Shown: piece by piece, positions 163-14,525 of the stretch
Layout of the letters: each line of letters begins with the position of its first letter
How positions within the stretch are numbered: position 1 is the stretch's first letter
Program-made: the position numbers and the translations under genes
The notes under the pieces: generated by a model
What the model saw: the letters and a program-made list of their open reading frames with translations, nothing else
Told to the model about the DNA's origin: nothing
Databases searched by the model: none
DNA from: a virus
Virus record (IMG/VR): IMGVR_UViG_3300043427_001988
Location: 4,927 to 68,926 of that record
Reading direction: 5' to 3' (one strand)
Length of the DNA stretch: 64,000 nt

Positions 163-193
163 ACGTCGCTCTCCTTAACTTGCTTACATAGTA

Positions 194-248: not shown

Positions 249-322
249 AATCGGGGCTTGGGGCACCCCCTACCCCCTAAAACCCCTTACACTTTCGTGC
301 AAGGGGCTAGAGGTGTAAGTGA

Positions 323-1499: not shown

Positions 1500-1528
1500 A
1501 ACAACCTCGCTTACTAACTTATGTATTA

Positions 1529-1583
1529 AGTATACCGCAAACTAGTGTATCTGTCAACAACAAGTTTATGAGAGTTTTCTCAT
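1529..1583 (-). promoter_or_regulatory. sigma70-type promoter with palindromic box
   Basis: TTGACA 1557-1552, 17 bp, TATACT 1534-1529; ATGAGAGTTTTCTCAT at 1568-1583. Confidence 0.9.
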
Positions 1584-1622
1584 TTGACGTGCTGCACGGC
1601 CTGGGGCACCCCCTACCCCCTA

Positions 1623-1844
1623 CTACGCTGGATTACCCAGGTAGTAGTGGACTTCATATACATCTATCAATTCCCCGTTTTCGTCGAGTGCCTCAAAGTG
1701 ACCGTCTACACGCTCTAGTTCATTTTCATAACAATAATCCGCACAATACATATCCGAACGCAATATAAAATCATCCATATCATTAATAGTAAAATCATCC
1801 ACCAACATCAAATCTTCACCCATATACGCACGTACTGTAATCAT
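1623..1844 (-). CDS. acidic hypothetical early protein
   Basis: ORF; AAAGGA RBS before MITVRAY; stop abuts the G-box repeat. Confidence 0.7.
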   Translation of the reverse strand: MITVRAYMGEDLMLVDDFTINDMDDFILRSDMYCADYCYENELERVDGHFEALDENGELIDVYEVHYYLGNPA

Positions 1845-1857
1845 CTGCTTATCCTTT

Positions 1858-2226
1858 CTACCATACCTCATTATTCCAGCGTGGATAGGTTAACCATCGA
1901 CGAGGCTCAAAACGCTCATCCAGTAATTCCTTCCCAAATACTGCTATTGAATCAATAACATCTTCATCTTCTTCCCCAAAGTATGCACAAGCGACTACCT
2001 TATTCCACTCTTCGGCGTAATAGTGATTCTTCCCTACAATCAGTTCGTATACATCGGGAAATTGTGCATACTCATAACCATGCACGAAAAACTTAATATT
2101 ACCTACATGACGCACAAGATGACGAACACGCCCACCGAGTACCATACGTGCGGCTTCAATTCGCTCTTCCACGCTCATCTGCTGTACCAAACGCATCACA
2201 TTCTCTAGGCTCATTGTGTACTCCAT
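1858..2226 (-). CDS. hypothetical early protein
   Basis: ORF behind TGnTATAAT promoter at 2244-2252. Confidence 0.75.
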   Translation of the reverse strand: MEYTMSLENVMRLVQQMSVEERIEAARMVLGGRVRHLVRHVGNIKFFVHGYEYAQFPDVYELIVGKNHYYAEEWNKVVACAYFGEEDEDVIDSIAVFGKELLDERFEPRRWLTYPRWNNEVW

Positions 2227-2371
2227 TTCTTGATTACATAGGTATTATAACACACTTTTGATAACTGAATTATGAGAACAAGATTAGAAAAACGGATTTT
2301 CAGTTTTCAGTTTTCAATTTTCAATTTTACTTGACTTTTTTCGATTTTCGGGTTACCCCCTACCCCCTACG

Positions 2372-2404
2372 CAAAAAGCCCCCGCTGATTACTCAACGAG
2401 GGCT
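2372..2404 (-). terminator. probable intrinsic terminator
   Basis: Minus strand AGCCCTCG...CGGGGGCT followed by TTTTT, downstream of ORF 2421-2837. Confidence 0.55.
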
Positions 2405-2420
2405 ATATACATTGTACACA

Positions 2421-2837
2421 CTAGGGAATAGCAAACCGAGAGCGATACCCTTCAATACCTAACTGCTCCGGCACACCTTTACTAATCAGTTCCTCAAACG
2501 AAACCGAGTGAGAGTATTGTACCTTCTCTGCTTCCGCATGGTAATGGTATATCTCTACCGTCTGCGTTGACCATGTGATTACAGGCAATTCACGGTACTC
2601 TGATTCGGGTAGAAACCGACCATACAACGACACACCACCGCCGAGCGTTGATTCATAACTGTTGATGATAGCATTCAACGCAATACGATTTGCATATGAA
2701 TAATCACTCCATCGCCCACTAGCCTGCACAACGGCGTTTTGTGCATCTACCATAGGATGCTTGCCCCAATGTGCATACACAAACATGATAGGCGACATCT
2801 GCGTATCACGAATACCCACTACTACACGATTACCCAC
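2421..2837 (-). CDS. conserved-type phage hypothetical protein
   Basis: MGNR...YAHWG N-terminus typical of a widespread phage family; GAGG RBS. Confidence 0.75.
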   Translation of the reverse strand: MGNRVVVGIRDTQMSPIMFVYAHWGKHPMVDAQNAVVQASGRWSDYSYANRIALNAIINSYESTLGGGVSLYGRFLPESEYRELPVITWSTQTVEIYHYHAEAEKVQYSHSVSFEELISKGVPEQLGIEGYRSRFAIP

Positions 2838-2880
2838 TAGCGCACCTCTTTCTATCTCTTACACAAGTATTATACCACAA

Positions 2881-3147
2881 TTAAAAATAGCGGTCAATCA
2901 TATCTTCGTAATCTTCCCCACGCTCATACTCCGAGATACGGTACTTAATACCCTCTGATTCAGCACGGTTAAGAAACTCCGGCGCATCACAATCCTCTTC
3001 GAGATACCACGTACTACCGACACAAACACTAAAACGAGTAGGCTTGAAACTGACACGCTCAACGAGAAACGTGGGCACTTCCAAATACCCGTGACGTGGC
3101 GTGCTTGAGAATACTAGACCGTAGATTACTTGTTGTGTGTTGCTCAT
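2881..3147 (-). CDS. phage hypothetical protein (STPxHG...LEEDCD type)
   Basis: Motifs STPRHGYLEV and WYLEEDCDA; AAGGAG RBS. Confidence 0.75.
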   Translation of the reverse strand: MSNTQQVIYGLVFSSTPRHGYLEVPTFLVERVSFKPTRFSVCVGSTWYLEEDCDAPEFLNRAESEGIKYRISEYERGEDYEDMIDRYF

Positions 3148-3353
3148 TTGGCAATTACTCCTTAACTTGACTACATAATTATTATACCAGACTTTTATGA
3201 GAATGGGGTGAGAGAATTTTGGGTTCCTGGACCAGGACCAAGGTAGTGCAGCGACGGCCTCACAAATGCCCCTAGAAATTTATTAGAGCGACGATAGCCC
3301 CAAAGTAGGGGGGCTGGGGGGTACGCCCCGAAGGGCTTGTTGTCAAGTGGTTT

Positions 3354-3587
3354 TTAGAGCAAATCTACCTCATTTGAACTAATCCAGTGCCCAACGTTAT
3401 TACGGTAATCCACCACGGCTATAAGCATTTCTTGAAGGTCGTTTAATGTGTATGTAAACTTTTCTACTGTTTTATACCATTCCAGCACATCGTTTGATGT
3501 AATTTCCAAAAAACAATGATTTTGAGTAATTTCGATGGTCAATGTGTATGCTTTGTACTCGGTAGTGACTTTATTAGTCCACATCAT
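3354..3587 (-). CDS. hypothetical early protein, paralog A
   Basis: GAGG RBS; similar to 3717-3965 (MWT...Y.L.I.ITQ...VVD....WI.SN.VD.L). Confidence 0.8.
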   Translation of the reverse strand: MMWTNKVTTEYKAYTLTIEITQNHCFLEITSNDVLEWYKTVEKFTYTLNDLQEMLIAVVDYRNNVGHWISSNEVDLL

Positions 3588-3618
3588 AACGCACCTCACT
3601 TAACTTGATTACATTAGT

Positions 3619-3673
3619 ATTATAGCGCAGGTAATAACCCGTGTCAAGAGGAAGTAGATGAGAGTTTTCTCAT
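3619..3673 (-). promoter_or_regulatory. sigma70-type promoter with palindromic box
   Basis: TTGACA 3647-3642, 17 bp, TATAAT 3624-3619; box at 3658-3673. Confidence 0.9.
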
Positions 3674-3716
3674 TTGACAAACGCCCCGGTCTGGGGCACC
3701 CCCTACCCCCTATCGC

Positions 3717-3965
3717 TTACAACGTGTCTACATCATTTGAATGAATCCATACCTTGAAGTTGAGGTAGTTATCAACTACCTTCATTAATAGTGCTTGTGC
3801 ATCTTCTAAGGATGCATCGCCACGGTTAATTATATGTGAAAATACCGGCGGGCTATCATATTGATTTGGTGCATCAATGAATAGGATATAATCCCGCTGA
3901 GTAATCACAATTTCCAAATTATACAACTCATAATCCCGCGATGCTCTCACTGTCCACATGTCCAT
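3717..3965 (-). CDS. hypothetical early protein, paralog B
   Basis: GAGG RBS, own promoter near 3998-4025; similar to 3354-3587. Confidence 0.8.
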   Translation of the reverse strand: MDMWTVRASRDYELYNLEIVITQRDYILFIDAPNQYDSPPVFSHIINRGDASLEDAQALLMKVVDNYLNFKVWIHSNDVDTL

Positions 3966-4021
3966 GATGTACCTCACTTAATTTGATTACACTAGTAGTA
4001 TACCATGAACCTAAACCAATG

Positions 4022-4234
4022 TCAATAAGTTTGTGAAATCCGCTGTAATTGACCGTCTGCATCAACGGTAAAATCAAAAGCGTGGGAATCTAAATCAATA
4101 AAATCATCACCAAAATCTGTGGGCGTGTAGGTTATTGAACTTAACACTGCACCATCTTGAGCATAGGCAGTTACGTCAAAGGTATCAAATCCACGAATAT
4201 GAACTTGGATGCGAACTTGTTGAATCTGGCTCAT
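4022..4234 (-). CDS. hypothetical early protein
   Basis: Start revised to MSQIQQ, behind GGAG RBS and promoter 4271-4299. Confidence 0.7.
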   Translation of the reverse strand: MSQIQQVRIQVHIRGFDTFDVTAYAQDGAVLSSITYTPTDFGDDFIDLDSHAFDFTVDADGQLQRISQTY

Positions 4235-4270
4235 GTCATTAACTCCGTTACTTAACTTGATTACATTAGT

Positions 4271-4325
4271 AGTATAAACGATATTCATACTGTTGTCAAG
4301 AGCAGTTTTATGAGAGTTTTCTCAT
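4271..4325 (-). promoter_or_regulatory. sigma70-type promoter with palindromic box
   Basis: TTGACA 4299-4294, 17 bp, TATACT 4276-4271; box at 4310-4325. Confidence 0.9.
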
Positions 4326-4389
4326 TTGACAAACGCCCCGGCCTGGGGCACCCCCTACCCCCTACGCAACGAAAAAAGACCCGCCCTGA

Positions 4390-4557
4390 TTACCAGGGCA
4401 GGTCTGACAAGTCAACAATCGGACTAGTATCAGCAGGGATAATTACATCTTGCTCATCAATCCACTGCTCCCACACTTGCTCAAAGTCGGGGGCGATTTC
4501 GTCAACTTGCTCATCCATCATGAAGTCGGTGAGGAAGATAAGTGGTAAGTTTGGCAT
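4390..4557 (-). CDS. small, highly acidic protein
   Basis: Start revised to MPNLPL behind AAGGAG; D/E-rich; own promoter near 4588-4616. Confidence 0.7.
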   Translation of the reverse strand: MPNLPLIFLTDFMMDEQVDEIAPDFEQVWEQWIDEQDVIIPADTSPIVDLSDLPW

Positions 4558-4612
4558 TTCGCATCTCCTTAACTTGATTACATACGTAGTATAGCACACA
4601 TTGAAACCGGTG

Positions 4613-4858
4613 TCAAGTGAGTATTTTTTCAATTACCACATACGGGGCAATAAACATACATACATCACTTGGTAACATAAGATGTAATGAAACAGTATCT
4701 TTATTTTGCACATATGCAACCATCTCGGCAATCTCACGGGCACGCTCTTCTGTAATCGTAGCCGCAATACGCTCATCTTCGGTTAATTCAATACGCCCGA
4801 CAATCTCGCCGTTGTGAGTGATTTTGATGTGTGTCCACGGTGCAAGTGTGTTGCTCAT
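4613..4858 (-). CDS. hypothetical early protein
   Basis: Start revised to MSNTLAPW behind AAGGAG. Confidence 0.75.
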   Translation of the reverse strand: MSNTLAPWTHIKITHNGEIVGRIELTEDERIAATITEERAREIAEMVAYVQNKDTVSLHLMLPSDVCMFIAPYVVIEKILT

Positions 4859-4888
4859 TTCGCATCTCCTTAACTTGATTACATTAGT

Positions 4889-4943
4889 AGTATAAACGAT
4901 ATTCATACTGTTGTCAAGAGTAGTTTTATGAGAGTTTTCTCAT
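4889..4943 (-). promoter_or_regulatory. sigma70-type promoter with palindromic box
   Basis: TTGACA 4917-4912, 17 bp, TATACT 4894-4889; box at 4928-4943. Confidence 0.9.
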
Positions 4944-4979
4944 TTGACAAACGCCCCGGCCTGGGGCACCCCCTACCCC

Positions 4980-5081
4980 CTAGTCCTCGTCGAAAAGTTC
5001 TGATTTAATCCGCCCGCTAATTACTAAAACAAAACCCACAATACTTACATAACCCATATAAACCAAAATCATCTCTAACAT
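4980..5081 (-). CDS. 33-aa single-pass membrane peptide
   Basis: MLEMILVYMGYVSIVGFVLVISGRIKSELFDED*; AAAGGG RBS; stop abuts G-box; not in ORF track. Confidence 0.6.
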   Translation of the reverse strand: MLEMILVYMGYVSIVGFVLVISGRIKSELFDED

Positions 5082-5101
5082 AGTACACACCCTTTCTATA
5101 A

Positions 5102-5234
5102 TGGTGGAGATGTCGGGAATCGAACCCGAGTCCAAAATGCTTTACACCATTGAAGGTAGGCGGTTTTCGCGTCTTACCGTGGGCAGTTATCACTACTCAC
5201 CGCCAAAACACCCTGTCAATACCGTGTCATCCCC
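5102..5234 (-). ncRNA. ssrA: miniature tmRNA (tRNA-like domain with very short insert)
   Basis: 5' GGGGATGACACGGTATTGAC...GGACTCGGGTTCGATTCCCGACATCTCCACCA 3'; acceptor stem with G3-U70, no D stem, P2-like helix, T arm, encoded CCA; only 133 nt. Confidence 0.85.
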
Positions 5235-5471
5235 TTATTGCAAATCCAGCGTATTCGTCACAGGATTAAAGTAGCGCACCGTTTTTGAGCCTTTAGCAAA
5301 CAACGGGTTACGAATTGGGGCACTAATTAACCACCGCCCATCATCCTGTGCAATAATCGAAAAATCCTCTAATCGTTGACCGCACATCTTCATCTCACGG
5401 TGTGAGAAAAACAGAGGATGATTCTCTTTGGTCAATCGCTTAATCTCGTGAATCGTTGGTCGCTTGTTCAT
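5235..5471 (-). CDS. phage hypothetical protein
   Basis: ORF with GAGG RBS behind promoter 5503-5531; stop directly abuts the tmRNA 5' end. Confidence 0.8.
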   Translation of the reverse strand: MNKRPTIHEIKRLTKENHPLFFSHREMKMCGQRLEDFSIIAQDDGRWLISAPIRNPLFAKGSKTVRYFNPVTNTLDLQ

Positions 5472-5502
5472 CGTGTCACCTCTTATCTAACCTTATGTAT
5501 TA

Positions 5503-5557
5503 AGTATACAGCACAAATACCAGCGTGTCAAGAGCAATTTTATGAGAGTTTTCTCAT
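5503..5557 (-). promoter_or_regulatory. sigma70-type promoter with palindromic box
   Basis: TTGACA 5531-5526, 17 bp, TATACT 5508-5503; box at 5542-5557. Confidence 0.9.
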
Positions 5558-5593
5558 TTGACAAACCCCGCGGCCTGGGGCACCCCCTACCCC

Positions 5594-5809
5594 CTATCGC
5601 TGAATATGCTCATATTTTGCTTCACATTGTTTACAAATATGTTTCACCCCGACGTTACCATCATAGAAACAATATTCATAAAAGGTATAAAAGCCTGCTG
5701 GGAAAGTAAACACCCGCAAATTATACTCTTCTTTACCACACGCCTGACAATGCGTATCAAAATATCGCTCAAGCCGACCATCATCACCGATACGTAGTTT
5801 AGCCTCCAT
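5594..5809 (-). CDS. small zinc-finger protein
   Basis: CQAC...CKQC; AAGGAG RBS. Confidence 0.75.
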   Translation of the reverse strand: MEAKLRIGDDGRLERYFDTHCQACGKEEYNLRVFTFPAGFYTFYEYCFYDGNVGVKHICKQCEAKYEHIQR

Positions 5810-5991
5810 AGCACACTCCTTAACTAACTTACAAGTACATTATAACACACATTCATACTGAGTTTTATGAGCGCAAGATTAGAAAATCAAATTTTGAATT
5901 TTAGATTTTGAATTTTCAATTTTAAATTTTAATTTTTCTTTTAATTTGACATTTTTTGAAATTCGGGCTACCCCCTACCCCCTGAACGCCA

Positions 5992-6168
5992 CTACGAGTA
6001 GTAGCGTTCGACCAACTCTTCACCATTTGCCCCGATGAAGTAGAGCAGGAACATAGTTTTCGGCATCATGACTTTGAGCAGTTGAATAGTCAACAGTGCC
6101 TTATCCAAGCCCTCTACATCCATTGAGCCGTTCCCGTGAGCGTATTCCATCTTGATGCGGTATGTCAT
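5992..6168 (-). CDS. 58-aa hypothetical protein
   Basis: MTYRIKMEYAHG...ERYYS*; AAGGAG RBS, TATAAT at 6203-6198; not in ORF track. Confidence 0.7.
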   Translation of the reverse strand: MTYRIKMEYAHGNGSMDVEGLDKALLTIQLLKVMMPKTMFLLYFIGANGEELVERYYS

Positions 6169-6300
6169 ATCAGACTCCTTACTTAACTTATGTATCTATT
6201 ATACACCAAAAAAGTACGCTGTGCGCGACTTTTCATGAGAATTAGATGAGAAAACAGGGGGGCTGGGGGGTGCGCCCCGAGGGGCTTTTTGTCAAGCGGG

Positions 6301-6714
6301 CTACTCTTTTGGTATTGGATACCAGCCAAGTAGTTTACCTGATTCATCACAAGTAAACATGTAACCATCAGCGGATAGTCTATCCAAATCACTTGCGATT
6401 TCTTTCCAAAGTGATACCCAATCTTCTTGAGAGATTTGCTCTACATCGGTTACATCATTCTCAAGATACGTAAAAACCCGCCCCAACATATTATCTGACA
6501 AATACCTACATGAAATATCCACCAAATCAGGAATAGGCAAGTCAATAGGCGCAAACATACGATTAGCAAACATAGCACTCTGCTCCTTTTTTACTGAATC
6601 TGTAGCCTTTGATGATACTGAACATTTCACAAGTACCGGTTGCTTTGGTACAAAAGAATCCCGCACATCGTTATTCAACCACTCTTGCAATTCACTAATC
6701 GTCATATCACTCAT
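6301..6714 (-). CDS. hypothetical early protein
   Basis: Start revised to MSDMTI behind AAGGAG; TTGACT/TATACT promoter near 6740-6768. Confidence 0.75.
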   Translation of the reverse strand: MSDMTISELQEWLNNDVRDSFVPKQPVLVKCSVSSKATDSVKKEQSAMFANRMFAPIDLPIPDLVDISCRYLSDNMLGRVFTYLENDVTDVEQISQEDWVSLWKEIASDLDRLSADGYMFTCDESGKLLGWYPIPKE

Positions 6715-6904
6715 AACATACTCCTTACTTACATACATAAGTATACACGAAATGCAGAAAAAAGTCAAACGCAAAAAAAAAAACTCCCCGACGCTGGGCC
6801 GGTGTAGTGGGGAAATGGCCTATACAGGAAATCTCTCGGAGCTGGACCGGAGTAGTGGCCCCTGCGGTTATCTATACGACCTTCAAAAAAAAAAGGGCGT
6901 TTTT

Positions 6905-7035
6905 CGGGGGCGGGGGCGCGCGCGTTATGTCAAGTTGTCGGGGCGTGTAGCGGGGCGGGGCGTGTAGCGGGGCGGGGCGTGTAGGGGCGTTTGGGGGCGT
7001 GTAGCGGGGCGGGGTAGGGGTAGGGGCGGGCGGGT
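6905..7035 (+). repeat. G-rich tandem repeat (GGGGCGTGTAGC/GGGGC units), G-quadruplex-prone
   Basis: More than ten G3-G5 runs in about 130 bp. Confidence 0.85.
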
Positions 7036-7587
7036 TTACCATGATGTGACGTAGTGATACCCTACACAACAATCAATACACGAACCACAATATGCACATG
7101 TTTCACCCGTCAAACAATCGAAACAATCAGTACATGTACAATGATAGCGGGTATCGTTGCATCGTTTGCATTGTAATTCACTACGGTATACATCTGTTAT
7201 GTATTGCGGGGTTTGACGGTATGCAATTACATCGTCTACTACGTAGTGAACCAATTCATTTACGATAAACGCTATAGACGGTTTACGGTGTGTACGAACG
7301 GGGGCGTAATTCATATGTAAACCCGTTTGGTAGTATTTGGTATTTAACGCCCGTACATATCCAAACGTATCATAGTGAACCGTTGCATAAATATGCGTTC
7401 GTTCAATTATGCCAGGTATCGTATACAGCGTATGTAACGCCCCGTTATGGTACGTATGTGCGGGTAAATCAATATTGATAGATAACGCCCCGTTCGTATC
7501 ACGGTGAACCCCTACGCTATACCCCGCAACAATCGTATTAATATAATCACCCCAAACCGTTCGTTTGATAGAATAATTCCTATTCAT
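7036..7587 (-). CDS. hypothetical protein with Cys-rich C-terminus
   Basis: CKRC..HCTCTDCFDC..CAYCGSCIDCC. Confidence 0.75.
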   Translation of the reverse strand: MNRNYSIKRTVWGDYINTIVAGYSVGVHRDTNGALSINIDLPAHTYHNGALHTLYTIPGIIERTHIYATVHYDTFGYVRALNTKYYQTGLHMNYAPVRTHRKPSIAFIVNELVHYVVDDVIAYRQTPQYITDVYRSELQCKRCNDTRYHCTCTDCFDCLTGETCAYCGSCIDCCVGYHYVTSW

Positions 7588-8068
7588 GATTAACCCCCGA
7601 TACAGTATTAATAAACTTACGAATTGAATTGATAGATAAATCCACGTTCACAGAGTAGGGTAGTAACAGTAGTATTTGCTGCGGGGTTAATACATCACGT
7701 TGCAACGAATTACATTTACTACAATCTACATACAAATTGAACGGGGTTAAATTACCCCCGAATATTCGGGGTATCTTATGACATATTGCAAGTTTATCAC
7801 CCCCGCAATTTATGCATTTGGGGCGTTCGGGTAAATCCAAACCGAACCGTTTGCAATTATCGTACACGCCCCTATGTGGTAAATGTTTAAATGATGTATC
7901 ACCCCCGATACTACCCGCTATCAAACCGTTATGCTCTAATAGGATTACATCATGATAGCGTTTATTAAAATCGGTAATTATTGCATCTGTAAGATACATA
8001 GATAATGCATCAAACGCCCCGCCCCCGTTTAATAAACGGTTCACTAGAATTAGTGGTATTTTCATCAC
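7580..8068 (-). CDS. HNH endonuclease-like protein
   Basis: CINC...ICHKIPRIFGG...NLYVDCSKCN matches the zinc-bound HNH pattern. Confidence 0.7.
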   Translation of the reverse strand: MMKIPLILVNRLLNGGGAFDALSMYLTDAIITDFNKRYHDVILLEHNGLIAGSIGGDTSFKHLPHRGVYDNCKRFGLDLPERPKCINCGGDKLAICHKIPRIFGGNLTPFNLYVDCSKCNSLQRDVLTPQQILLLLPYSVNVDLSINSIRKFINTVSGVNHE

Positions 8069-8658
8069 TCACCCCGCAAATTATCTGTATGAACGCCCCG
8101 TTTGATATATTCATAACGCCCCGAACCAAACGCCCCCGCTACATATTCGGTATGTTTGAATAATCGTAAATCGGGTATACGTAAACGAACCGCTACGCTA
8201 TCACTATTCACAAACGCATTATCAATATAGATGTAATCAATAACGGTATTTGTATCGTCTACCATATCCAAACGTAAACGATTTAACGCCCCGCTATTCA
8301 ATTCAATATTAATAATGCATTCATTCGGTAATAGATGATTTACGGGGTTATATTCATACCCGTAAAATATCACCCGATTATGATTATTAAATCGAACCCG
8401 TTCGTTAAATTGTTCTATTGCATCGTGTAGCGTGTAGTGGTTCGTTGTATCGTATAAATACCCCCCGTCGTTTACTACGCTAGTATGAAACAAATCACTA
8501 TAAGAGTAGCAGATGATTTGTAGTGTAGCGGTTTGGGTTTGTGCTACTGCAATAGCATTAACGTCAATACCCCCGTATGTTGTAACAATACGATATGTAA
8601 TACTTGAATAATCTACCCGTTCACCATTTGCATAAATATGCGTTCGTTTGTTAATCAC
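8065..8658 (-). CDS. hypothetical protein
   Basis: Start revised to GTG 8658 behind AGGGG RBS; the ORF-track extension is repeat DNA. Confidence 0.7.
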   Translation of the reverse strand: MINKRTHIYANGERVDYSSITYRIVTTYGGIDVNAIAVAQTQTATLQIICYSYSDLFHTSVVNDGGYLYDTTNHYTLHDAIEQFNERVRFNNHNRVIFYGYEYNPVNHLLPNECIINIELNSGALNRLRLDMVDDTNTVIDYIYIDNAFVNSDSVAVRLRIPDLRLFKHTEYVAGAFGSGRYEYIKRGVHTDNLRGE

Positions 8659-8727
8659 TACGATACCCCTATCAATATAATAGCGGGGGCGTATATCACC
8701 CCCGCAACGAACCCGCTGCAAACCGAT

Positions 8728-8743
8728 TGTTTCACGTGAAACA
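8728..8743. promoter_or_regulatory. parS: parS site (chromosomal consensus)
   Basis: Exact TGTTTCACGTGAAACA. Confidence 0.85.
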
Positions 8744-9124
8744 TTAACCCCGTTTGATTGTTGTAATCAATACGTCTAATGCATCACGGGTATTTTTTGC
8801 ATCATTCGAATATGTTTGTAGACGTGCTACTAATGCATTATTACGTTGAATTAACCCCCGCAACGTTTGTTTGTATGAACGTCGTAATTCTATATCGTAC
8901 CATTTGGTATCAATAAGTAGACCGCTGATAATAGTAATTTGTTTCGTTACATCGTTCAATTCTACGGTGTCAACATGGGTAAACCGTTCGATAGTTTGTA
9001 GCACGTCTAGTGTAGTACCAAATGTTGCAATTTGTAGCGGGTTCATATTCTTAACCCGTTCGTTCAATACCCGCTTATATTCGCTAGAATTAACCGGTTT
9101 ACGTTGCGTTTGTTTGTTATCCAT
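8744..9124 (-). CDS. hypothetical coiled-coil protein
   Basis: ORF with AGGGG RBS; stop abuts parS. Confidence 0.75.
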   Translation of the reverse strand: MDNKQTQRKPVNSSEYKRVLNERVKNMNPLQIATFGTTLDVLQTIERFTHVDTVELNDVTKQITIISGLLIDTKWYDIELRRSYKQTLRGLIQRNNALVARLQTYSNDAKNTRDALDVLITTIKRG

Positions 9125-9138
9125 TGTGAACCCCTATT

Positions 9139-9225
9139 CTATACTAATGCTAAAAATACAAATACTGCTATCACCCAAACATACACCCATACACAAACCC
9201 AAAAAATAAACGTCAAATTATCCAT
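9139..9225 (-). CDS. 28-aa hydrophobic membrane peptide
   Basis: MDNLTFIFWVCVWVYVWVIAVFVFLALV*; same AGGGGTTCACAATGGA start context as neighbours; not in ORF track. Confidence 0.7.
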   Translation of the reverse strand: MDNLTFIFWVCVWVYVWVIAVFVFLALV

Positions 9226-9293
9226 TGTGAACCCCTATCAATATAATAGCGGGGGCGTTTATCACCCCCGCAACGAACCCGCTGCAAACCGAT

Positions 9294-9309
9294 TGTTTCA
9301 CGTGAAACA
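9294..9309. promoter_or_regulatory. parS: parS site
   Basis: Exact TGTTTCACGTGAAACA. Confidence 0.85.
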
Positions 9310-9310
9310 A

Positions 9311-9595
9311 TCACCCACGGTGTCCAAATGTGAACCGGTGTATGTACACCCCGTCGTATTTACCATGTTTGATTAACTTGCGTACACGGTGTATTAACTT
9401 ACGTGCTACCAAATCATCACCCCGTAACAATGCGTTATATGCATCATCTAACAATCTACGTAATCTACCATAATAATCGTATACGTACACCTCATTTACC
9501 CCCAAATTGTAATCATCACATGCACGTTGTAGCATGATACCCGTTGTAACATGTAAGAGAAACAAACGTTTACCTAATTCACTAATGCTATTCAT
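9311..9595 (-). CDS. hypothetical protein
   Basis: ORF between repeat copies; AGGGG RBS. Confidence 0.75.
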   Translation of the reverse strand: MNSISELGKRLFLLHVTTGIMLQRACDDYNLGVNEVYVYDYYGRLRRLLDDAYNALLRGDDLVARKLIHRVRKLIKHGKYDGVYIHRFTFGHRG

Positions 9596-9663
9596 TCGAT
9601 ACCCCTATCAATATAATAGCGGGGGCGTTTATCACCCCCGCAACGAACCCGAACCGAACCCAT

Positions 9664-9679
9664 TGTTTCACGTGAAACA
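9664..9679. promoter_or_regulatory. parS: parS site
   Basis: Exact TGTTTCACGTGAAACA. Confidence 0.85.
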
Positions 9680-9680
9680 T

Positions 9681-9860
9681 TTACACCATTGACCATTGCA
9701 TAAACGCAACATAGCGGGGCGTATCGTATACACCCGCCCGTACATACCGAACGTATGGAACGCTATCACCCATGTACCATGTAGCAGTACCGACAATCAC
9801 CCCGCCCCGTACCAATTGAATGATGTATGCATCGCTATACATCGTATGTTTGTAATCCAT
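9681..9860 (-). CDS. 59-aa hypothetical protein
   Basis: MDYKHTMYSDAYIIQLVRGG...WSMV*; AGGGG RBS; fills the gap between repeats; not in ORF track. Confidence 0.7.
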   Translation of the reverse strand: MDYKHTMYSDAYIIQLVRGGVIVGTATWYMGDSVPYVRYVRAGVYDTPRYVAFMQWSMV

Positions 9861-9928
9861 TGTGAACCCCTATCAATATAATAGCGGGGGCGTATATCAC
9901 CCCCGCAACGAACCCGAACCGAACCCAT

Positions 9929-9944
9929 TGTTTCACGTGAAACA
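9929..9944. promoter_or_regulatory. parS: parS site
   Basis: Exact TGTTTCACGTGAAACA. Confidence 0.85.
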
Positions 9945-9946
9945 AT

Positions 9947-10219
9947 CTATAACCCGTTGCGTTTGTCGGTATGGTATATCATTGTTTGAATGTATACCAA
10001 ATCTAGAATTGACGGTTTACGCTTGTTTTCAATAATGCGTTCACCGTAGCACGTCGTAATAGCGTATGGGTTATGTACCGTTTTGTATACCGTGATGTAA
10101 TAATCACGAACGTACACGAATGTGTAGATTGTTTCATTGCCGTTCACGTCGTTAACCGTTAACGTCGTTGCGGGTGAACCGTCAAACGTCGTATTACCCC
10201 AAATCAAACCATGCTCCAT
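9947..10219 (-). CDS. hypothetical protein
   Basis: ORF between repeat copies; AGGG RBS. Confidence 0.75.
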   Translation of the reverse strand: MEHGLIWGNTTFDGSPATTLTVNDVNGNETIYTFVYVRDYYITVYKTVHNPYAITTCYGERIIENKRKPSILDLVYIQTMIYHTDKRNGL

Positions 10220-10286
10220 TGTAAACCCCTATTCATAATAGCGGGGGCGTTTATCACCCCCGCAACGAACCCAAACCCGAACCGAT

Positions 10287-10302
10287 TGTTTCACGTGAAA
10301 CA
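10287..10302. promoter_or_regulatory. parS: parS site
   Basis: Exact TGTTTCACGTGAAACA. Confidence 0.85.
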
Positions 10303-10323
10303 TTTACCCGAACCCGAACCCAT

Positions 10324-10339
10324 TGTTTCACGTGAAACA
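10324..10339. promoter_or_regulatory. parS: parS site
   Basis: Exact TGTTTCACGTGAAACA. Confidence 0.85.
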
Positions 10340-10567
10340 TTTTCACGTATTGACGGGCGGCATTTACCGATACAATCGGGTATTACGCCCCCCCCGTCTA
10401 TTGAATTGTCAATGTACCGTGATAGCGGGGGTTCGTTTACGCTACGTTTACCGTATGGGGGCGTTCGCAGTAGCCAAACCGTGAACCCCCCCGAACCCAT
10501 ATCACCCGCCCGTATCGGCGTGGACACCCGCCCGTATGGGGGCGGGGCGTAATTTAACGCTACGGGT

Positions 10568-10632
10568 ATTGTAACAAATCCAATACCCCCGTGCCAAAAA
10601 ATAGATTAACGTTTGATGAGAGAATTATGAGA
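10568..10632 (-). promoter_or_regulatory. probable promoter of the island operon, with TCTCAT direct repeat
   Basis: TTGGCA-18-TACAAT with extended TG; ATGAGA at 10616 and 10627. Confidence 0.6.
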
Positions 10633-10769
10633 AAAAACACTTAAAACCGTTTTTATTCATATTTTCTTAACAATCCAGGGGTAGAACAAATGTGCTACTT
10701 TTTGGGGTACGGACTATACACAGACCCTCAAAAATTTTTAAAAGCCTCCCCTTCCTTTTTACCCCCAGG

Positions 10770-10845
10770 AACCCCACATAAACCCCACATAAACCACCAA
10801 GAACCACCAGAGAACCACCAGAGAACCACACATAAACCACACAAT
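10770..10845 (+). repeat. about 11-bp tandem repeat (AACC(C/A)C..., 7 copies)
   Basis: aaccccacata x2, aaccaccaag, aaccaccagag x2, aaccacacata, aaccacacaata. Confidence 0.85.
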
Positions 10846-10864
10846 AAAAAAGAAGAGGAGCATG

Positions 10865-11218
10865 TTACTGCTCCTCCTCCGTGCTATTATTCGTATGTCT
10901 GCTCATGCGCAACCGCCGCTCTTCTACCGGCCTGGATAAATATTCTTCTCGCACATATTCATAGGGAACGTAATCAAGTAATCCCTTCGGGTCATCAAAC
11001 GACGTAGGGCTATTCAGGTGTTTGCGTACATACCATTTCAAATCGCGAGATGGTTTGAGATTAAGCACGGTCATCGTAGGGCCGTAGTGTACGCGTACTT
11101 CTTTATCATCCCAGGCCATGAAATACCCTGCACCCCATCCTTCTTTTGGTTTATAGAATTCTATCCAGCGTTCTTCAATACTCCCGCCGATAACAACGAC
11201 TTTACGAAATAAACTCAT
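10865..11218 (-). CDS. hypothetical protein
   Basis: Start revised to MSLFRKV behind GAGGAG. Confidence 0.7.
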   Translation of the reverse strand: MSLFRKVVVIGGSIEERWIEFYKPKEGWGAGYFMAWDDKEVRVHYGPTMTVLNLKPSRDLKWYVRKHLNSPTSFDDPKGLLDYVPYEYVREEYLSRPVEERRLRMSRHTNNSTEEEQ

Positions 11219-11468
11219 CGCGCGGTGCTCCTCGGTAATTGACGACGATAGTGTCGATAAAGAGATACCAGAAGTATATGGCAGTAACCTCGGCGGGAAG
11301 GAAGCCGGTGGTATCAAAAAAGGCCAGGACGATACTCGCCGACCAGGTGTACCGCCAGAGCAAAAAGGGGATTTGTAAGAGAAAGATAGGGCTCGCCAAA
11401 TCGGGCAACCAGTCATAGGCTACGGCAAGGGCACTAGACCCGAGCGCAAGAAGTAGGGTTGCCACCAT
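11202..11468 (-). CDS. small membrane protein
   Basis: Hydrophobic segments from MVATLLLALG; start uncertain. Confidence 0.55.
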   Translation of the reverse strand: MVATLLLALGSSALAVAYDWLPDLASPIFLLQIPFLLWRYTWSASIVLAFFDTTGFLPAEVTAIYFWYLFIDTIVVNYRGAPRDEFIS

Positions 11469-11977
11469 GAAGCCTGTACGATAAACGAGTCTGGTTTCAT
11501 CTCCAGCTGCATCGTAATAAAAAACGAACTTGTATTGGTAATCCGCAAGTCTTGCTCTTGCGTTGCTGAGCCATCCATGTTCCATATTGATACGTTGTCC
11601 TGTCGTTCTACCTCTAAGAGAGGAGTGGAATGAAGGGGAAACTCACGTTCCAGGCCAAATACCCGCGCGAGTTCTGCGTAGCGTGATGCTAAATCACACC
11701 ACCCACCGCCATAGACTCCCCCAGCGGTGATGAGTGGGTACATATCGGGATGACCGACCGTACCGTTAAAAGACCAGGTTTCTCCTGGCGCAATCGTGAC
11801 TGTTTCCAAGGGAGGAACAATCAGCGCAATATTGGTATCTCGCTCATGTCCACGCAGGATTGGCGTGGCCGTATAGACCACCTGGCGCGGAATGAGGGAG
11901 AGGATAAAAATAAGAAAAAATGTAATAAAGCTAGAGACGGCGTGCGTCGGTGACATAGACTTCCACGTCATTTTCAT
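11420..11977 (-). CDS. VanW-family membrane-anchored protein
   Basis: N-terminal TM; IAPGETWSFNGTVG and GGGWCDLAS match VanW motifs. Confidence 0.75.
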   Translation of the reverse strand: MKMTWKSMSPTHAVSSFITFFLIFILSLIPRQVVYTATPILRGHERDTNIALIVPPLETVTIAPGETWSFNGTVGHPDMYPLITAGGVYGGGWCDLASRYAELARVFGLEREFPLHSTPLLEVERQDNVSIWNMDGSATQEQDLRITNTSSFFITMQLEMKPDSFIVQASWWQPYFLRSGLVPLP

Positions 11978-12989: not shown

Positions 12990-13371
12990 TCTCCTTTCGT
13001 TTCACAGTGTAATAGTGAAACCCCTTAAAGCGTTCAAGACGCTCTCTAATTCTGCCGGTCAGGTAGGTAAACACCTCATTCGTGTGTAGTTCTCCCTTCC
13101 AGTTTCCCTCAACGCGTTTTCCTATCATCTTTGGTACGAGGGTATTATCCCCGTAGATTTCGATAAAGAAATCGCTTGTATCCTCGTAGTGAATATGCAA
13201 CCGGCGGAGCATTCTCAGGAGCATTGTAAACTCGCCCTGGTTACTGTCGCCAATTCCGTCCATATCAAACTTGTGGTGGTATAAAATAGTTTTTGGGGAT
13301 ACGTTATCAACATAGATAACATAGCTACCATGTTGCGTACCCCCATCAAAATAACAGATTAACTTCGTCAC
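12967..13371 (-). CDS. RNase H-like protein
   Basis: YFDGG, SNQGEF, IYGDN acidic triad typical of RNase HI. Confidence 0.7.
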   Translation of the reverse strand: MTKLICYFDGGTQHGSYVIYVDNVSPKTILYHHKFDMDGIGDSNQGEFTMLLRMLRRLHIHYEDTSDFFIEIYGDNTLVPKMIGKRVEGNWKGELHTNEVFTYLTGRIRERLERFKGFHYYTVKRKEIVAKLGH

Positions 13372-14525
13372 TCAGACTTGCCGGTAATACCGGAGAGCAA
13401 TTTCTTTTGATACCAGATTTGCTGTGTTGATGCAACCACCCCTGCATCAAGGAACGGCGTGCCATCCTGGTATACAAGTGGTCCCTTCCAAAGGGTTTTA
13501 CCACTAGCCAGCATCGCAATAAACTGGTCTAATGCAGCGTTTTCCGTAAAGGCCTCTCCGCGAGTAAAGCCGATACCATTTGTGTCCATACTGTCAAAGT
13601 CGTCCCAGTTTGGTGCAAACCATACAAAGTCTGGTTGGTATGCGCGGTTCTTTTGTGCGTCGGCAAGGCGCATGTACTCTGGGTACCAGTTAAAGTACGG
13701 AACACCAAGACATGCTTCAGGACCTTTCTCACAGGCTTCTGGGTGGTCATAGGGCAGTGAGTACACGTCCTTTCCATCAGCACGGTGCTTTGCGACTTGT
13801 ACCGCAACGTCTGGGGTGTCAATACCGCCCATGATAACATCGTGACCGGTAGATACAAAGTCCCCCACAATCGTTACGGGGTCAAGCGTAACACCTGGGA
13901 TATTAAACCAGAATCCTACCCATACGACATTAAACGAAAGTGGTTCGGTTTGCCCGCGGAGTGCAGTCCAGCAGTAGTTCGCGCCCAGGTAGGCCGAGTT
14001 GACAAGACGGCGGGTTTCGTCGTTAATGAGTGGCCCGACGTAGCCAATCTTACCGGTCTTCGTGGAAAGGGCTGCTGCACAACCGGCAATCATCTTGCCG
14101 TATTCCATCTGACCCATCACGTTCCCGAGGTTATCTGGAGCCTTTCCTGTGATACGGTCATCGCCTGATGCGTGAACAAACTTGATTTGGGGATGGGCAA
14201 GAGCCGCGTTGCGGGTGCCGTCCTTAAAGTCATCCGAGTTGGTGATAATCATGGTAGCACCCTGACCAATCAACTCCTCAATTACTTGCTCTACCTTAAC
14301 ATTGGGTCGGTCAGCTGGGTTAACCTTGTCTACATAGACGTACTTAATTCCCGCATCTTTCTCCACACGAAGCATGGCATCGTGGTGTGCTTGGCTCCAC
14401 CCGCCGTCGTTAATTGGCCCGACCAACACCATACCAATCGTGGTGGTCTGGGTTTCTGCGGGACTTGCCCCACAGGCCATGAGCATTACGGCGATAATCG
14501 CCATCAGTACTGTTCGCAAAATCAT
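13368..14525 (-). CDS. BMP-family (PnrA/Med-like) ABC substrate-binding lipoprotein
   Basis: Lipobox LMAC; VGPINDGGWSQAH, GKIGYVG, VWVGFWF motifs. Confidence 0.9.
   Translation of the reverse strand: MILRTVLMAIIAVMLMACGASPAETQTTTIGMVLVGPINDGGWSQAHHDAMLRVEKDAGIKYVYVDKVNPADRPNVKVEQVIEELIGQGATMIITNSDDFKDGTRNAALAHPQIKFVHASGDDRITGKAPDNLGNVMGQMEYGKMIAGCAAALSTKTGKIGYVGPLINDETRRLVNSAYLGANYCWTALRGQTEPLSFNVVWVGFWFNIPGVTLDPVTIVGDFVSTGHDVIMGGIDTPDVAVQVAKHRADGKDVYSLPYDHPEACEKGPEACLGVPYFNWYPEYMRLADAQKNRAYQPDFVWFAPNWDDFDSMDTNGIGFTRGEAFTENAALDQFIAMLASGKTLWKGPLVYQDGTPFLDAGVVASTQQIWYQKKLLSGITGKSE

What the first reader, a model, noticed from the sequence alone, without database searches (positions are those of the whole stretch)
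6940..10670. Sharply bounded island depleted in AAG/CAG/GAG and their complements
Seen by eye: the six trinucleotides AAG, CAG, GAG, CTT, CTG and CTC are rare here. I found none in 8101-8460, versus about 7 per 60-nt line in sampled flanking lines at 6421 and 10861. TAG/CTA is kept, GGA/TCC is scarce, I saw no GGCC or GCGC, and even the RBS changes from AAGGAG to AGGGG. The effect is on both strands and in non-coding DNA, so codon bias alone does not explain it. Known: many Type IIG, Type III and BREX motifs end in ...AG (CTGAAG, CAGCAG, TAGGAG, GGTAAG). Inference: a generically restriction-proof leader that enters first. Alternatively, the region is kept free of a phage base-modification context so host proteins can read it.
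Basis: partly seen in the sequence, partly recalled or inferred. Interest (0 to 1): 0.78.

Follow-up and report, generated by a model that had tools for sequence, protein, structure and literature searches.

The report
Phage gene island purged of short words
A 3.7-kb block of small genes in an uncultured freshwater phage almost completely lacks a few three- and four-letter DNA words on both strands, most likely so that this early-acting DNA gives host defences nothing to recognise.

Summary
Window 6933-10617 has 38 AAG/CAG/GAG/CTT/CTG/CTC. 579 other windows of the same length have 344 +/- 34 (minimum 266). The depletion exceeds codon bias, is equal on both strands, holds in non-coding DNA, and reshapes the ribosome-binding sites. 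CGCG, GCGC, GGCC, AGCT, GATC and GANTC are absent too.

The island is a leftward-transcribed cassette of eight small genes with its own promoter and repeated intergenic modules. It is joined to the phage backbone in independent assemblies of two strains. A third strain lacks it, and its contigs diverge at the island's edges.

In three runs the island has about 1.3-2 times the depth of its flanks (1.8 in the two best). This suggests a collapsed terminal repeat.

Best reading (confidence 0.45): a T5/T7-style leader or pre-early segment purged of words that defences recognise, namely PAM-like trinucleotides and restriction-site cores. First entry, the terminal repeat and the selecting agent are all inferred, not shown.

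Rivals are avoidance of a phage-encoded enzyme's own target word, a donor compositional signature, and hypermutation. A mis-join is rejected for the right junction only.

The parts
6933..10617 (.). The depleted island as a whole: 38 VAG/CTB words, 6-mer vocabulary 857
   Evidence: for the counts and edges. for vocabulary: 857 distinct 6-mers against 1462-1648 in 39 control windows.
6939..7035 (+). G-rich tandem array (17-nt unit CGGGGCGTGTAGCGGGG, about 4 copies, then GGGGTA repeats) at the left edge, just downstream of the last island gene. It is C-rich on the transcript.
   Evidence: (family D4). Its length varies between assemblies (tables 4, 5c, 7).
7036..7587 (-). 183-aa protein with a C-terminal domain holding 11 invariant cysteines and a GYH motif. 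No known family.
   Evidence: Homologues P0005-P0008 and their alignment A2.
7580..8068 (-). 162-aa HNH-like protein (CxxC...H...N...CxxC). It is the least depleted island gene, with 12 of the 38 residual sites.
   Evidence: Pfam HNH_5 E=2e-4 at 21.5 bits, below the 27.5-bit cut-off. PHROG HNH families E=2e-4 to 9e-3. Site positions.
8065..8658 (-). 197-aa orphan protein. The true start is taken as the GTG near 8658, from alignment with homologues; the ORF list gives 8065-8721.
   Evidence: P0002 is 71% and P0003 65% identical, both 203 aa. The AF2 model is unusable, pLDDT 33.5.
8744..9124 (-). 126-aa orphan protein
9139..9225 (-). 28-aa hydrophobic peptide ORF preceded by the module's ribosome-binding site
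   Evidence: That it is coding is inferred only.
9311..9595 (-). 94-aa orphan protein
9681..9860 (-). 59-aa orphan protein
9947..10219 (-). 90-aa orphan protein; first gene of the cassette
8654..8746 (-). Intergenic module, copy 1. On the minus strand it reads: 16-nt palindrome TGTTTCACGTGAAACA, a GGTTCG-rich spacer, a 9-bp GC hairpin, then TATTATATTGATAGGGG and the start codon.
   Evidence: families D1-D3; terminator-like hairpin; fold of the 9855-9950 copy, -30.8 kcal/mol, z -2.06
9220..9312 (-). Intergenic module, copy 2
9590..9682 (-). Intergenic module, copy 3
9855..9947 (-). Intergenic module, copy 4
10220..10617 (-). Non-coding head of the cassette. It holds module copy 5 with two palindromes (10235-10342), repeated CACCCGCCCGTAT boxes (read by eye), and the best sigma-70-like promoter of the region (TTGGCA, 18 nt, TG-TACAAT, 10597 to 10568), which reads into the island.

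Best explanation
The island is a self-contained, leftward-transcribed cassette of eight small genes. It is the phage's leader or pre-early ('host take-over') segment. It is probably present twice per genome as a terminal repeat that the assembly collapsed into one copy.

Its DNA has to work in the cell before the phage has any protection. Continuing selection on the DNA itself has therefore purged it of the short words that DNA-targeting defences need. These are the three-letter words VAG/CTB (plus AGG and GGA), which resemble type I CRISPR PAMs and form the common ...AG core of adenine-methylase-type RM/BREX sites, and the 4-5-bp Type II sites CGCG, GCGC, GGCC, CCGG, AGCT, GATC and GANTC.

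The purge is strong enough to change codon choice, amino-acid composition and the Shine-Dalgarno sequence, which becomes a G-run that would have to pair with a G-U wobble.

Shown: the depletion, that it acts at DNA level and is still selected, and that the island is a swappable unit joined to this backbone.

Inferred: first entry, the terminal repeat, and which defence is the agent.
For: 1. Size and nature of the depletion.
- 38 sites against 344 +/- 34 in other windows.
- It goes beyond codon usage: 34 observed against 85 +/- 7.6 when the island's own codons are shuffled.
- Non-coding DNA has 4 sites in 943 nt.
- It is equal on both strands and uniform over all 12 V-AG-N contexts.

2. A second, independent class of words is missing.
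- CGCG 0, GCGC 0, GGCC 0, AGCT 0, GATC 0, CCGG 2, against pooled island-Markov expectations that come to about 3-17 per site once halved for double-counted palindromes.
- GANTC 0 against 9.8 expected.

3. Functional read-out. The island has sites for 1 of 10 RM/BREX systems listed in PMC10644984. 59 control windows have a mean of 5.0, range 2-8.

4. Ongoing selection.
- Run X5 holds a strain that differs by 7-16% in the island. I used the 37 differences listed (314 more were not shown).
- With those 37 applied, the count stays at 6. Random placement of the same changes gives 12.8 +/- 2.6 (P=0.006).
- 36 nucleotide differences give only 10 amino-acid changes, so the proteins are conserved. Protein homologues exist at 65-71% identity.

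5. The island behaves as a unit.
- It has its own promoter about 20 nt inside the right edge.
- Its module words occur nowhere else in the genome.
- The right junction is bridged by Logan contigs in X1, X2 and the diverged X5 (table 8).
- Strain X7 has both flanks, but its contigs run on into unlike sequence from 6937 and from 10679.
- The conserved gene block of 4 related phage records ends at about window 11202, and a variable region follows.

6. Depth (table 8). Long island contigs against flank contigs: 28.6 against 16.1 (X1), 40.3 against 22.8 (X2), 28.4 against 14.1-18.3 (X5). The shorter island contigs range from 18.4 to 44.7.

7. Precedent.
- In T5-like phages, RM, CRISPR and Ssp systems act only on sites in the first-injected terminal repeat (passages of PMC10644984 and PMC5389539).
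- In Murciavirus, motifs in the first-injected region decide Type I RM sensitivity (abstract of PMC12455610).
- In E. coli type I-E, the interfering PAMs beside AAG are CAG, GAG, TAG, AGG and ATG (passage of PMC6568314). AAG, GAG, CAG and AGG are four of the five most depleted trinucleotides here.
Against: - Termini were not mapped. Only contigs were available, not reads, so neither first entry nor a terminal repeat is shown. Double depth could have other causes.
- The left junction near 6933 was not bridged by any contig in X1, X2 or X5.
- The backbone itself completely avoids GATC (0 against 209 expected), CATTGC (0 against 30), GACGCC, GATATC, CGTACG and TTCGAA. So the backbone is also exposed to restriction. 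The island holds 2 CATTGC (both on the + strand) and 1 TTCGAA.
- 6-bp palindromes are not reduced: 21 against 22.8.
- TAG and ATG are interfering PAMs in E. coli type I-E, yet here they are enriched (1.26 and 1.36 times).
- 38 VAG/CTB sites remain.
- No island protein matches a known anti-defence or take-over family.
- The syntenic regions of 4 related phage records are not depleted (G002-G004) or only weakly depleted (G001, AG/CT 0.6).
- The host and its defences are unknown.
Confidence: 0.45

Rival explanations
1. Self-inflicted agent. The island lacks the target word of an enzyme that the phage itself makes. There are three candidates:
- A frequent-cutting nuclease or nickase that destroys host DNA while only this segment is in the cell. 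The island's own HNH-like protein is a candidate.
- The phage's beta-class DNA methyltransferase.
- The phage's zinc-ribbon DnaG-type primase. A primase-site-free terminal repeat would stay single-stranded after replication and could anneal to form concatemers.
For: - The depletion is at three-letter level and uniform over flanking contexts. This fits enzymes that read three letters. From memory, not from a call: primases read template trinucleotides, and chlorovirus nickases and methylases read RAG and CCD.
- An HNH-like gene lies in the island.
- The primase has an N-terminal CxxC...CxxC ribbon (the DnaG match is).
- The methyltransferase is present.
- The T5 literature says it is unclear how first-step DNA escapes the phage's own host-DNA degradation (passage of PMC10644984).
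- Symmetry on both strands is expected under all three versions.
Against: - None of the three explains the loss of CGCG, GCGC, GGCC, CCGG, AGCT, GATC and GANTC.
- The HNH gene carries 12 of the 38 residual sites.
- The HNH assignment is below Pfam's cut-off.
- No enzyme specificity could be predicted.
- No hypermodification pathway was found among the 43 proteins scanned. ORFs under about 100 aa and the first 4.9 kb of the genome were not scanned.
Confidence: 0.2
2. Donor signature. The cassette was acquired from another phage lineage whose whole genome has this odd composition. The island's composition then reflects its history, not its role at this locus.
For: - The island is a replaceable unit, absent from strain X7. 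It lies in the hypervariable region of the phage family.
- Between strains it is more diverged (7-16%) than its flanks (about 3%).
- It holds CATTGC twice and TTCGAA once, words that the backbone lacks entirely.
- Its regulatory words occur nowhere else in the genome.
Against: - No donor was found. There was no DNA or protein match in 50,697 phage records, none in IMG/VR by protein or module pattern, and none in genome contigs.
- Of the 119 foreign loci fetched by the palindrome pattern, none has such an island.
- Selection against VAG is still acting during strain divergence. A purely historical signature would decay.
- A donor with genome-wide VAG loss would itself need one of the other explanations.
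Confidence: 0.12
3. Early-gene codon adaptation only. Genes expressed before the phage tRNA-Arg(UCU) accumulates avoid AGA/AGG and other codons that are rare in the host. This shifts k-mer content, as seen in the leading regions of plasmids.
For: - Island Arg codons are 94% CGN, against 21% AGR in the backbone. The phage's only tRNA reads AGA.
- The T5 first-step region and the weak G001 island show a correlated shift that is poor in AGA/GAG and rich in CG. Spearman correlation is 0.82 between those two, and 0.50 and 0.40 with this island.
- Codon adaptation of leading regions is reported for plasmids (abstract of PMC13478746).
Against: It cannot explain the depletion out of frame, on the antisense strand, in non-coding DNA or in the ribosome-binding sites. 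It also cannot explain the missing palindromes. It is probably a contributing layer, not the cause.
Confidence: 0.05
4. Hypermutation, for example A-to-G at VAG, which would turn AAG and GAG into GGG and would never create a stop codon. The ORFs would then be relics.
For: - GGG/CCC, CGG/CCG, GGGG and CCCC are 1.7-5.7 times enriched.
- By reasoning rather than a call, A>G and T>C changes cannot create stop codons.
Against: - GC content is not raised: 42.8% against 44.0%.
- AGG and TGG are depleted, not enriched.
- The substitution spectrum between strains is balanced: A>G 46, G>A 53, C>T 47, T>C 49.
- The proteins are conserved: 65-71% identical homologues, and 10 amino-acid changes per 36 nucleotide changes.
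- The ORFs tile the minus strand although stop trinucleotides are enriched.
Confidence: 0.03
5. Assembly chimera or mis-join.
For: - The edges are sharp.
- The left junction (6374-6934) has no Logan cover in X1, X2 or X5.
Against: - The right junction is bridged by a 53-kb contig (X1), an 8.3-kb contig (X2) and a 2.8-kb contig of the diverged strain (X5, another study) (table 8).
- The island genes share strand and direction with both flanks.
- GATC avoidance is shared by the island and the backbone.
Confidence: 0.02

Closest known systems
Phage T5 first-step-transfer (FST) DNA: the left terminal repeat with the pre-early genes
   Same: - A block of small genes, mostly of unknown function, that includes an HNH endonuclease and has a repeat-rich non-coding stretch at one boundary (T5 annotation).
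- In T5, host RM, CRISPR and Ssp systems matter only if their targets lie in this segment (passages of PMC10644984 and PMC5389539).
- T5's FST also shows a milder shift in the same direction: AGA 0.49, GAG 0.53, AGAG 0.19. Its Spearman correlation with this island is 0.50.
- Double depth here is compatible with a terminal repeat.
   Different: - No homology to dmp, A1 or A2: no family hits at all.
- 3.7 kb against 10.2 kb.
- T5's 6-mer vocabulary is barely reduced: 1387-1423 against a mean of 1486 for the rest. Here it is 857 against 1563.
- The terminal position and two-step injection are not shown here.
- The backbone here also avoids restriction sites, unlike the T5 picture of a protected second-step DNA.
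Leading (first-injected) region of T7-like phages such as Murciavirus, where absence of a motif there gives escape from Type I RM
   Same: - A variable early region in which the position of a motif decides sensitivity (abstract of PMC12455610).
- The promoter lies close to the presumed end and reads inward, with the genes in one direction.
   Different: There, single specific motifs are lost. Here whole trinucleotides and several 4-mers are purged. No Ocr-like or other known anti-restriction gene was detected.
Genome-wide restriction-site and PAM avoidance in phages
   Same: - The same logic of avoiding targets.
- This genome also shows it globally: GATC 0 against 209 expected, CATTGC 0 against 30.
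- PAM depletion in phages has been reported. I saw only the search listings of PMC4246573 and PMC12174588.
   Different: - Here the purge is local and sharply bounded.
- It is about ten-fold at trinucleotide level.
- It rewrites the ribosome-binding sites and the amino-acid composition: Cys 4.3, His 3.0 and Tyr 1.7 times up; Glu, Met, Gln, Ala, Ser and Pro 0.48-0.60 of the backbone value.
Leading regions of conjugative plasmids
   Same: The first DNA to enter, enriched in anti-defence genes, with a distinct composition.
   Different: For 1,751 plasmids the leading region was 'not consistently depleted' in 4-8-bp palindromes but was codon-adapted (abstract of PMC13478746). Here the target depletion is extreme.

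Membership tests
T5-type first-step-transfer terminal repeat | The segment is a direct terminal repeat (two copies per virion genome) | tested here: inconclusive
   Long island contigs have 1.55-2.0 times the depth of the flanks in X1, X2 and X5; the shorter island pieces range from 1.0 to 2.2 times. No reads were available to show termini, and IMG/VR classes the record as linear without end repeats.
T5-type first-step-transfer terminal repeat | Enters the cell first, with a pause before the rest of the genome | not testable with these tools
   Needs an isolate, or time-resolved data.
T5-type first-step-transfer terminal repeat | Encodes homologues of the pre-early proteins A1, A2 and dmp | tested here: not met
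   No Pfam, PHROG or NCBIfam hit for 6 of the 7 island proteins scanned. Only a weak HNH hit for the seventh.
Restriction-site avoidance | Words under-represented against a composition-controlled expectation | tested here: met
   CGCG, GCGC, GGCC, AGCT and GATC are 0 and CCGG is 2, against island trinucleotide-Markov expectations. GANTC is 0 against 9.8. The panel gives 1 of 10 against a control mean of 5.0.
Restriction-site avoidance | The avoided words are recognition sites of the host's own systems | not testable with these tools
   The host is unknown. The nearest cultured phages have 28% PolA identity and there is no portal match.
CRISPR PAM depletion | The depleted word equals the PAM of a CRISPR type in the host, on both strands | tested here: inconclusive
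   The depletion is symmetric. Of the six E. coli type I-E interfering PAMs (passage of PMC6568314), AAG, GAG, CAG and AGG are at 0.07-0.21 of expectation, but TAG is at 1.26 and ATG at 1.36. The host's CRISPR type is unknown.
Horizontally acquired island with a donor signature | A donor lineage with the same composition exists | tested here: not met
   No match in the phage records, IMG/VR or genome contigs. The DNA of the three protein homologues' contigs could not be fetched.
HNH endonuclease (for the 162-aa protein) | Score above the Pfam gathering threshold | tested here: not met
   HNH_5 scores 21.5 bits against a 27.5-bit cut-off, and HNH scores 13.8 against 21.4. The CxxC...H...N...CxxC motif is visible by eye.

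The most novel reading that the evidence does not exclude
The island is a terminally redundant first-step segment that has been purged of a three-letter word because something that reads three letters acts while this DNA is alone in the cell.

That agent would be one of two things. It could be the host's type I CRISPR system: a leader with almost no PAMs leaves few sites from which a spacer can be acquired or used. Or it could be the phage's own frequent-cutting host-DNA nuclease, in which case the segment protects itself by avoiding the word rather than by modification.

Either way, the sequence alone would mark which DNA enters first and which word the agent reads.
Probability: 0.2. Interest if true: 0.85.

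Novelty: new variant of a known kind. Interest (0 to 1): 0.72.

Why it matters
Target avoidance in first-entering DNA is known for single motifs in T5 and T7-like phages. It was looked for in plasmid leading regions and not consistently found.

This island would be the clearest natural case so far. Selection on the DNA has removed about 90% of six trinucleotides and all copies of several 4-mers from a bounded 3.7-kb segment. It has shifted amino-acid composition and replaced the canonical Shine-Dalgarno sequence.

If the reading holds, three things follow:
- Such islands could be used to locate leader or pre-early DNA in uncultured phage genomes.
- They could be used to infer which words the host's defences read.
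- The remaining islands of vulnerability in a phage genome could be measured.

If a phage enzyme turns out to be the agent, the island would show a way in which first-step DNA escapes the phage's own attack on host DNA. The T5 literature I read calls that question unresolved.

Tried and rejected
Searches for relatives of the island
- DNA search of the island and of a 20-kb backbone piece against 50,697 phage records: no match.
- tblastn of two island proteins and of the portal against the same records: no match.
- PolA gave only matches of 29% identity or less, so the host could not be inferred.
- The palindrome TGTTTCACGTGAAACA in IMG/VR gave 119 loci. None has a depleted island; only L022 had 2 windows at or below 12.
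- The hairpin pattern gave 0 hits in IMG/VR.
- The search for related loci with island or flank proteins, or with alignment A2, found nothing in IMG/VR and nothing in genome contigs.
- In metagenome contigs there was one weak hit, L123, at 31% identity and with normal composition.

Function of the island proteins
- The AlphaFold model of the 218-aa ORF has pLDDT 33.5 and is unusable, so I ran no fold search.
- The ESM Atlas gave no usable lead for two island proteins.
- Rfam found no family in 6600-10900.
- NCBIfam found nothing for the 7 island proteins scanned.

Tools not available
The DNA around P0002, P0003 and P0005 therefore stayed out of reach.

Parts without cover in the laid runs
- 6374-6934 has no cover in X1, X2 and X5. 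The tool says this proves nothing.

Comparisons that gave nothing
- SPO1's terminal redundancy shows no comparable shift: lowest ratio 0.81, vocabulary unchanged.

Readings considered and set aside
- Avoidance of Shine-Dalgarno-like sequences or of RNase sites. The depletion is no stronger on the mRNA strand: 21 sense VAG against 17 sense CTB.
- Type I-F, I-C, II-A, V-A and I-D PAMs. CC/GG, GAA/TTC, TTT, GTT and GTA are not depleted.
- Chi-like function of the G-rich words. This was speculation only and was not tested.

Full report
**What is there**

The window is 4927-68926 of a 68,926-bp IMG/VR virus record, classed as linear and about 90% complete. Runs that hold it are labelled freshwater or aquatic metagenomes.

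The phage backbone carries:
- a portal and a large terminase, the terminase with an intein-like insert;
- a ribonucleotide reductase, a PolA-type polymerase and a GT4 glycosyltransferase;
- a DnaB helicase, a DnaG-type primase, a RecA-like protein, a Cas4-like nuclease and a GT2 glycosyltransferase;
- a beta-class N6A/N4C methyltransferase;
- one tRNA, Arg(TCT).

It is far from every cultured phage. The portal has no match and the best PolA match is 28-29% identical.

**The observation**

- AAG, CAG, GAG, CTT, CTG and CTC together occur 38 times between 6933 and 10617.
- 579 other windows of the same length have 344 +/- 34, minimum 266.
- The edges are abrupt. The last dense site is at 6932 and the next dense site is at 10618. 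The longest empty stretch is 8085-8502.
- Of the 73 AG dinucleotides on the + strand, 56 are TAG. All 12 V-AG-N contexts are depleted 4-fold or more, while T-AG-N is not.
- Also scarce: GGA/TCC (0.16 of expectation), AGG/CCT (0.21) and GAC/GTC (0.40).
- Absent: CGCG, GCGC, GGCC, AGCT, GATC and GANTC. CCGG occurs twice.
- Enriched 3-7 fold: CCCC, CCCG, ACCC, GGGG, CGGG and CGTT.
- GC content is unchanged.
- The island uses 857 of the 2,080 strand-pooled 6-mers. 39 control windows use 1462-1648.
- 6-bp palindromes are not fewer: 21 against 22.8.

**It is not codon bias**

- The seven larger ORFs hold 34 sites.
- Recoding the same proteins with backbone codon usage gives 185 +/- 10.
- Shuffling the island's own synonymous codons gives 85 +/- 7.6, with a minimum of 58 in 1,000 trials.
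- Out-of-frame sites number 16 against about 67 expected.
- The 943 nt of non-coding island DNA hold 4 sites (all).
- Counts are equal on the two strands.
- Codon choice follows the rule: CAA is 96% of Gln codons, CTA/TTR 93% of Leu, CGN 94% of Arg.
- Amino-acid composition shifts as well. Cys, His and Tyr rise. Glu, Met, Gln, Ala, Ser and Pro fall to 0.48-0.60 of their backbone values, and Lys to 0.69.
- The ribosome-binding sites are G-runs (TAGGGG). Four of the eight flanking genes printed show GAGGAG, AAGGAG or similar.

**Anatomy**

All genes are on the minus strand. From right to left:
- a 400-nt non-coding head (10220-10617), with the region's best sigma-70-like promoter at 10597-10568;
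- genes of 90, 59, 94, 28, 126, 197, 162 and 183 codons;
- a G-rich 17-nt tandem array at 6939-7035.

Five copies of an intergenic module precede genes. Each has the palindrome TGTTTCACGTGAAACA, a GGTTCG-rich spacer and a 9-bp GC hairpin, and each ends with the ribosome-binding site. These words occur nowhere else in the genome.

Only the 162-aa protein has a family hint, HNH, and that is below the Pfam cut-off. The 183-aa protein ends in a domain with 11 invariant cysteines, shared with four database proteins. The 197-aa protein has two homologues at 65-71% identity.

**Real, linked and swappable**

I laid Logan contigs of four runs on 6000-11600.
- The right junction is bridged in X1 (53-kb contig), in X2 (8.3 kb) and in X5 (2.8 kb). 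X5 comes from another study and holds a strain whose island differs by 7-16% and whose flanks differ by about 3%.
- The left junction (6374-6934) had no cover in X1, X2 or X5, so it is not bridged.
- X7 holds a relative with both flanks, but its contigs continue into unlike sequence from 6937 and from 10679.
- In four related phage records found through the portal, the conserved gene block ends at about window 11202 and a variable region follows.
- None of the 15 portal loci has a 500-nt window with 15 or fewer of the six words. None of the 4 whole records has a window below 19, against medians of 44-51.
- G001 has a weak syntenic island with AG/CT at 0.6 of expectation.

**Selection is continuing**

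One search printed 37 X5 differences in 7087-7631; 314 further rows were not shown.
- With these 37 applied, the variant still has 6 sites. Random placement of the same changes gives 12.8 +/- 2.6 (P=0.006).
None of the 26 observed synonymous differences does (binomial P=5e-4).
- Only 10 amino acids differ for 36 nucleotide differences.

This argues against relic ORFs and against a signature that is purely historical.

**Why here**

In the three runs that hold the island, its long contigs have 1.55-2.0 times the k-mer depth of the flank contigs: 28.6 against 16.1, 40.3 against 22.8, and 28.4 against 14.1-18.3. The shorter island pieces range from 18.4 to 44.7 (table 8).

GC content is the same, so the simplest reading is two copies per genome, a direct terminal repeat collapsed by assembly. 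Together with the promoter about 20 nt inside the right edge that reads inward, this resembles the leader of T7-like phages and the first-step-transfer repeat of T5.

For T5-like phages, the passages I read say that RM types I-III, type I and II CRISPR and Ssp systems act only when their targets lie in that repeat (PMC10644984), and that only pre-early protospacers give type I-E interference (PMC5389539). The abstract of PMC12455610 reports the same logic for Type I RM in Murciavirus.

A panel of ten motifs printed in PMC10644984 finds a site for one system in the island, a single EcoPI site. Control windows have a mean of 5.0.

**Which agent**

The uniform three-letter depletion suggests a reader of three letters.
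- In E. coli type I-E, the interfering PAMs beside AAG are CAG, GAG, TAG, AGG and ATG (passage of PMC6568314). AAG, GAG, CAG and AGG are four of the five most depleted trinucleotides here. TAG and ATG are not depleted.
- The missing 4-5-mers fit Type II systems.
- Other three-letter readers cannot be excluded: the phage's own zinc-ribbon primase, a frequent-cutting nuclease such as the island's HNH-like protein, or the methyltransferase.

**Points against the leader reading**

- The backbone itself has no GATC (209 expected), no CATTGC (30 expected), and no GACGCC, GATATC, CGTACG or TTCGAA. So the backbone is exposed to restriction too.
- The island carries two CATTGC, both on the + strand, and one TTCGAA.
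- Termini are unmapped, the host is unknown, and no anti-defence homologue was found.

**A layer of codon adaptation**

The trinucleotide shifts of T5's first-step DNA and of G001's weak island correlate strongly with each other (Spearman 0.82). They correlate moderately with this island (0.50 and 0.40). SPO1's terminal redundancy does not correlate with it. The shared direction, poor in AGA/GAG and rich in CG, fits early genes that avoid codons needing phage tRNAs, as reported for plasmid leading regions (abstract of PMC13478746). This is a background trend. The extreme VAG purge sits on top of it.

**Literature**

Six full-text searches found no description of a bounded, trinucleotide-level purge in a phage. 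Genome-wide PAM or site avoidance and position-dependent single motifs are in print.

**Verdict**

- It is a new, extreme variant of target avoidance in early-acting DNA.
- Confidence in the leader reading is 0.45.

Noticed in passing
whole genome outside 6933-10617: The 65-kb backbone has no GATC (209 expected), no CATTGC/GCAATG (30 expected), and no GACGCC, GATATC, CGTACG, RGCGCY or TTCGAA. GCAGC occurs at half its expected number. Several portal relatives also lack GATC, while others have 7-57 copies.
   Followed up: partly
window 8731-8746, 9297-9312, 9667-9682, 9932-9947, 10290-10305, 10327-10342; loci L009, L016, L023, L024, L063, L067, L073, L075: The perfect 16-nt palindrome TGTTTCACGTGAAACA occurs in at least 119 unrelated IMG/VR contigs. 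It often appears in 3-5 intergenic copies just upstream of a ribosome-binding site, and in L024 and L063 it lies next to GGGGTAG-type G-runs like those here. It looks like a widespread phage operator or RNA element of unknown partner.
   Followed up: partly
window 10770-10848: An 11-nt tandem array (AACCACACATA / AACCACCAGAG, about 7 copies) lies just outside the island's right edge, after the terminator of the conserved block. G001 has a similar array at the syntenic spot.
   Followed up: no
window 18833-21436 (-): The large terminase is 867 aa, with an Intein_splicing hit over residues 126-416 (E=1.3e-4, below the cut-off). It is probably an intein-containing terminase.
   Followed up: no
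window 25966-26658 (+): GIY-YIG / NUMOD1 homing-endonuclease-like gene at the point where the two transcription arms diverge.
   Followed up: no
window 63082-63157 (+): The only tRNA is Arg(TCT). The backbone uses AGA for 16% of Arg codons, the island for 3%.
   Followed up: partly
window 13368-14525 (-): A 385-aa Bmp/PnrA-like substrate-binding lipoprotein gene in a phage, 84-85% identical in relatives G001 and G002.
   Followed up: no
G001 44751-47250 (locus L142 4751-7250); T5 1-9140 (L124): The weak island of relative G001 and T5's first-step DNA share almost the same trinucleotide shift: Spearman 0.82, with AGA, GAG and ACT down and CGC, ACG and GCC up. This may be a general signature of pre-early regions.
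   Followed up: partly
G002 both contig ends (L144 start, L147 end): The 77.8-kb relative's contig begins and ends inside a long TTGACCCC tandem array. The array lies in the variable region that is syntenic with the island.
   Followed up: no
window 6939-7035 in runs X1, X2, X5: The G-rich array at the island's left edge differs in length and sequence between assemblies, and a hairpin-terminator variant adjoins it (tables 4, 5c, 7).
   Followed up: no
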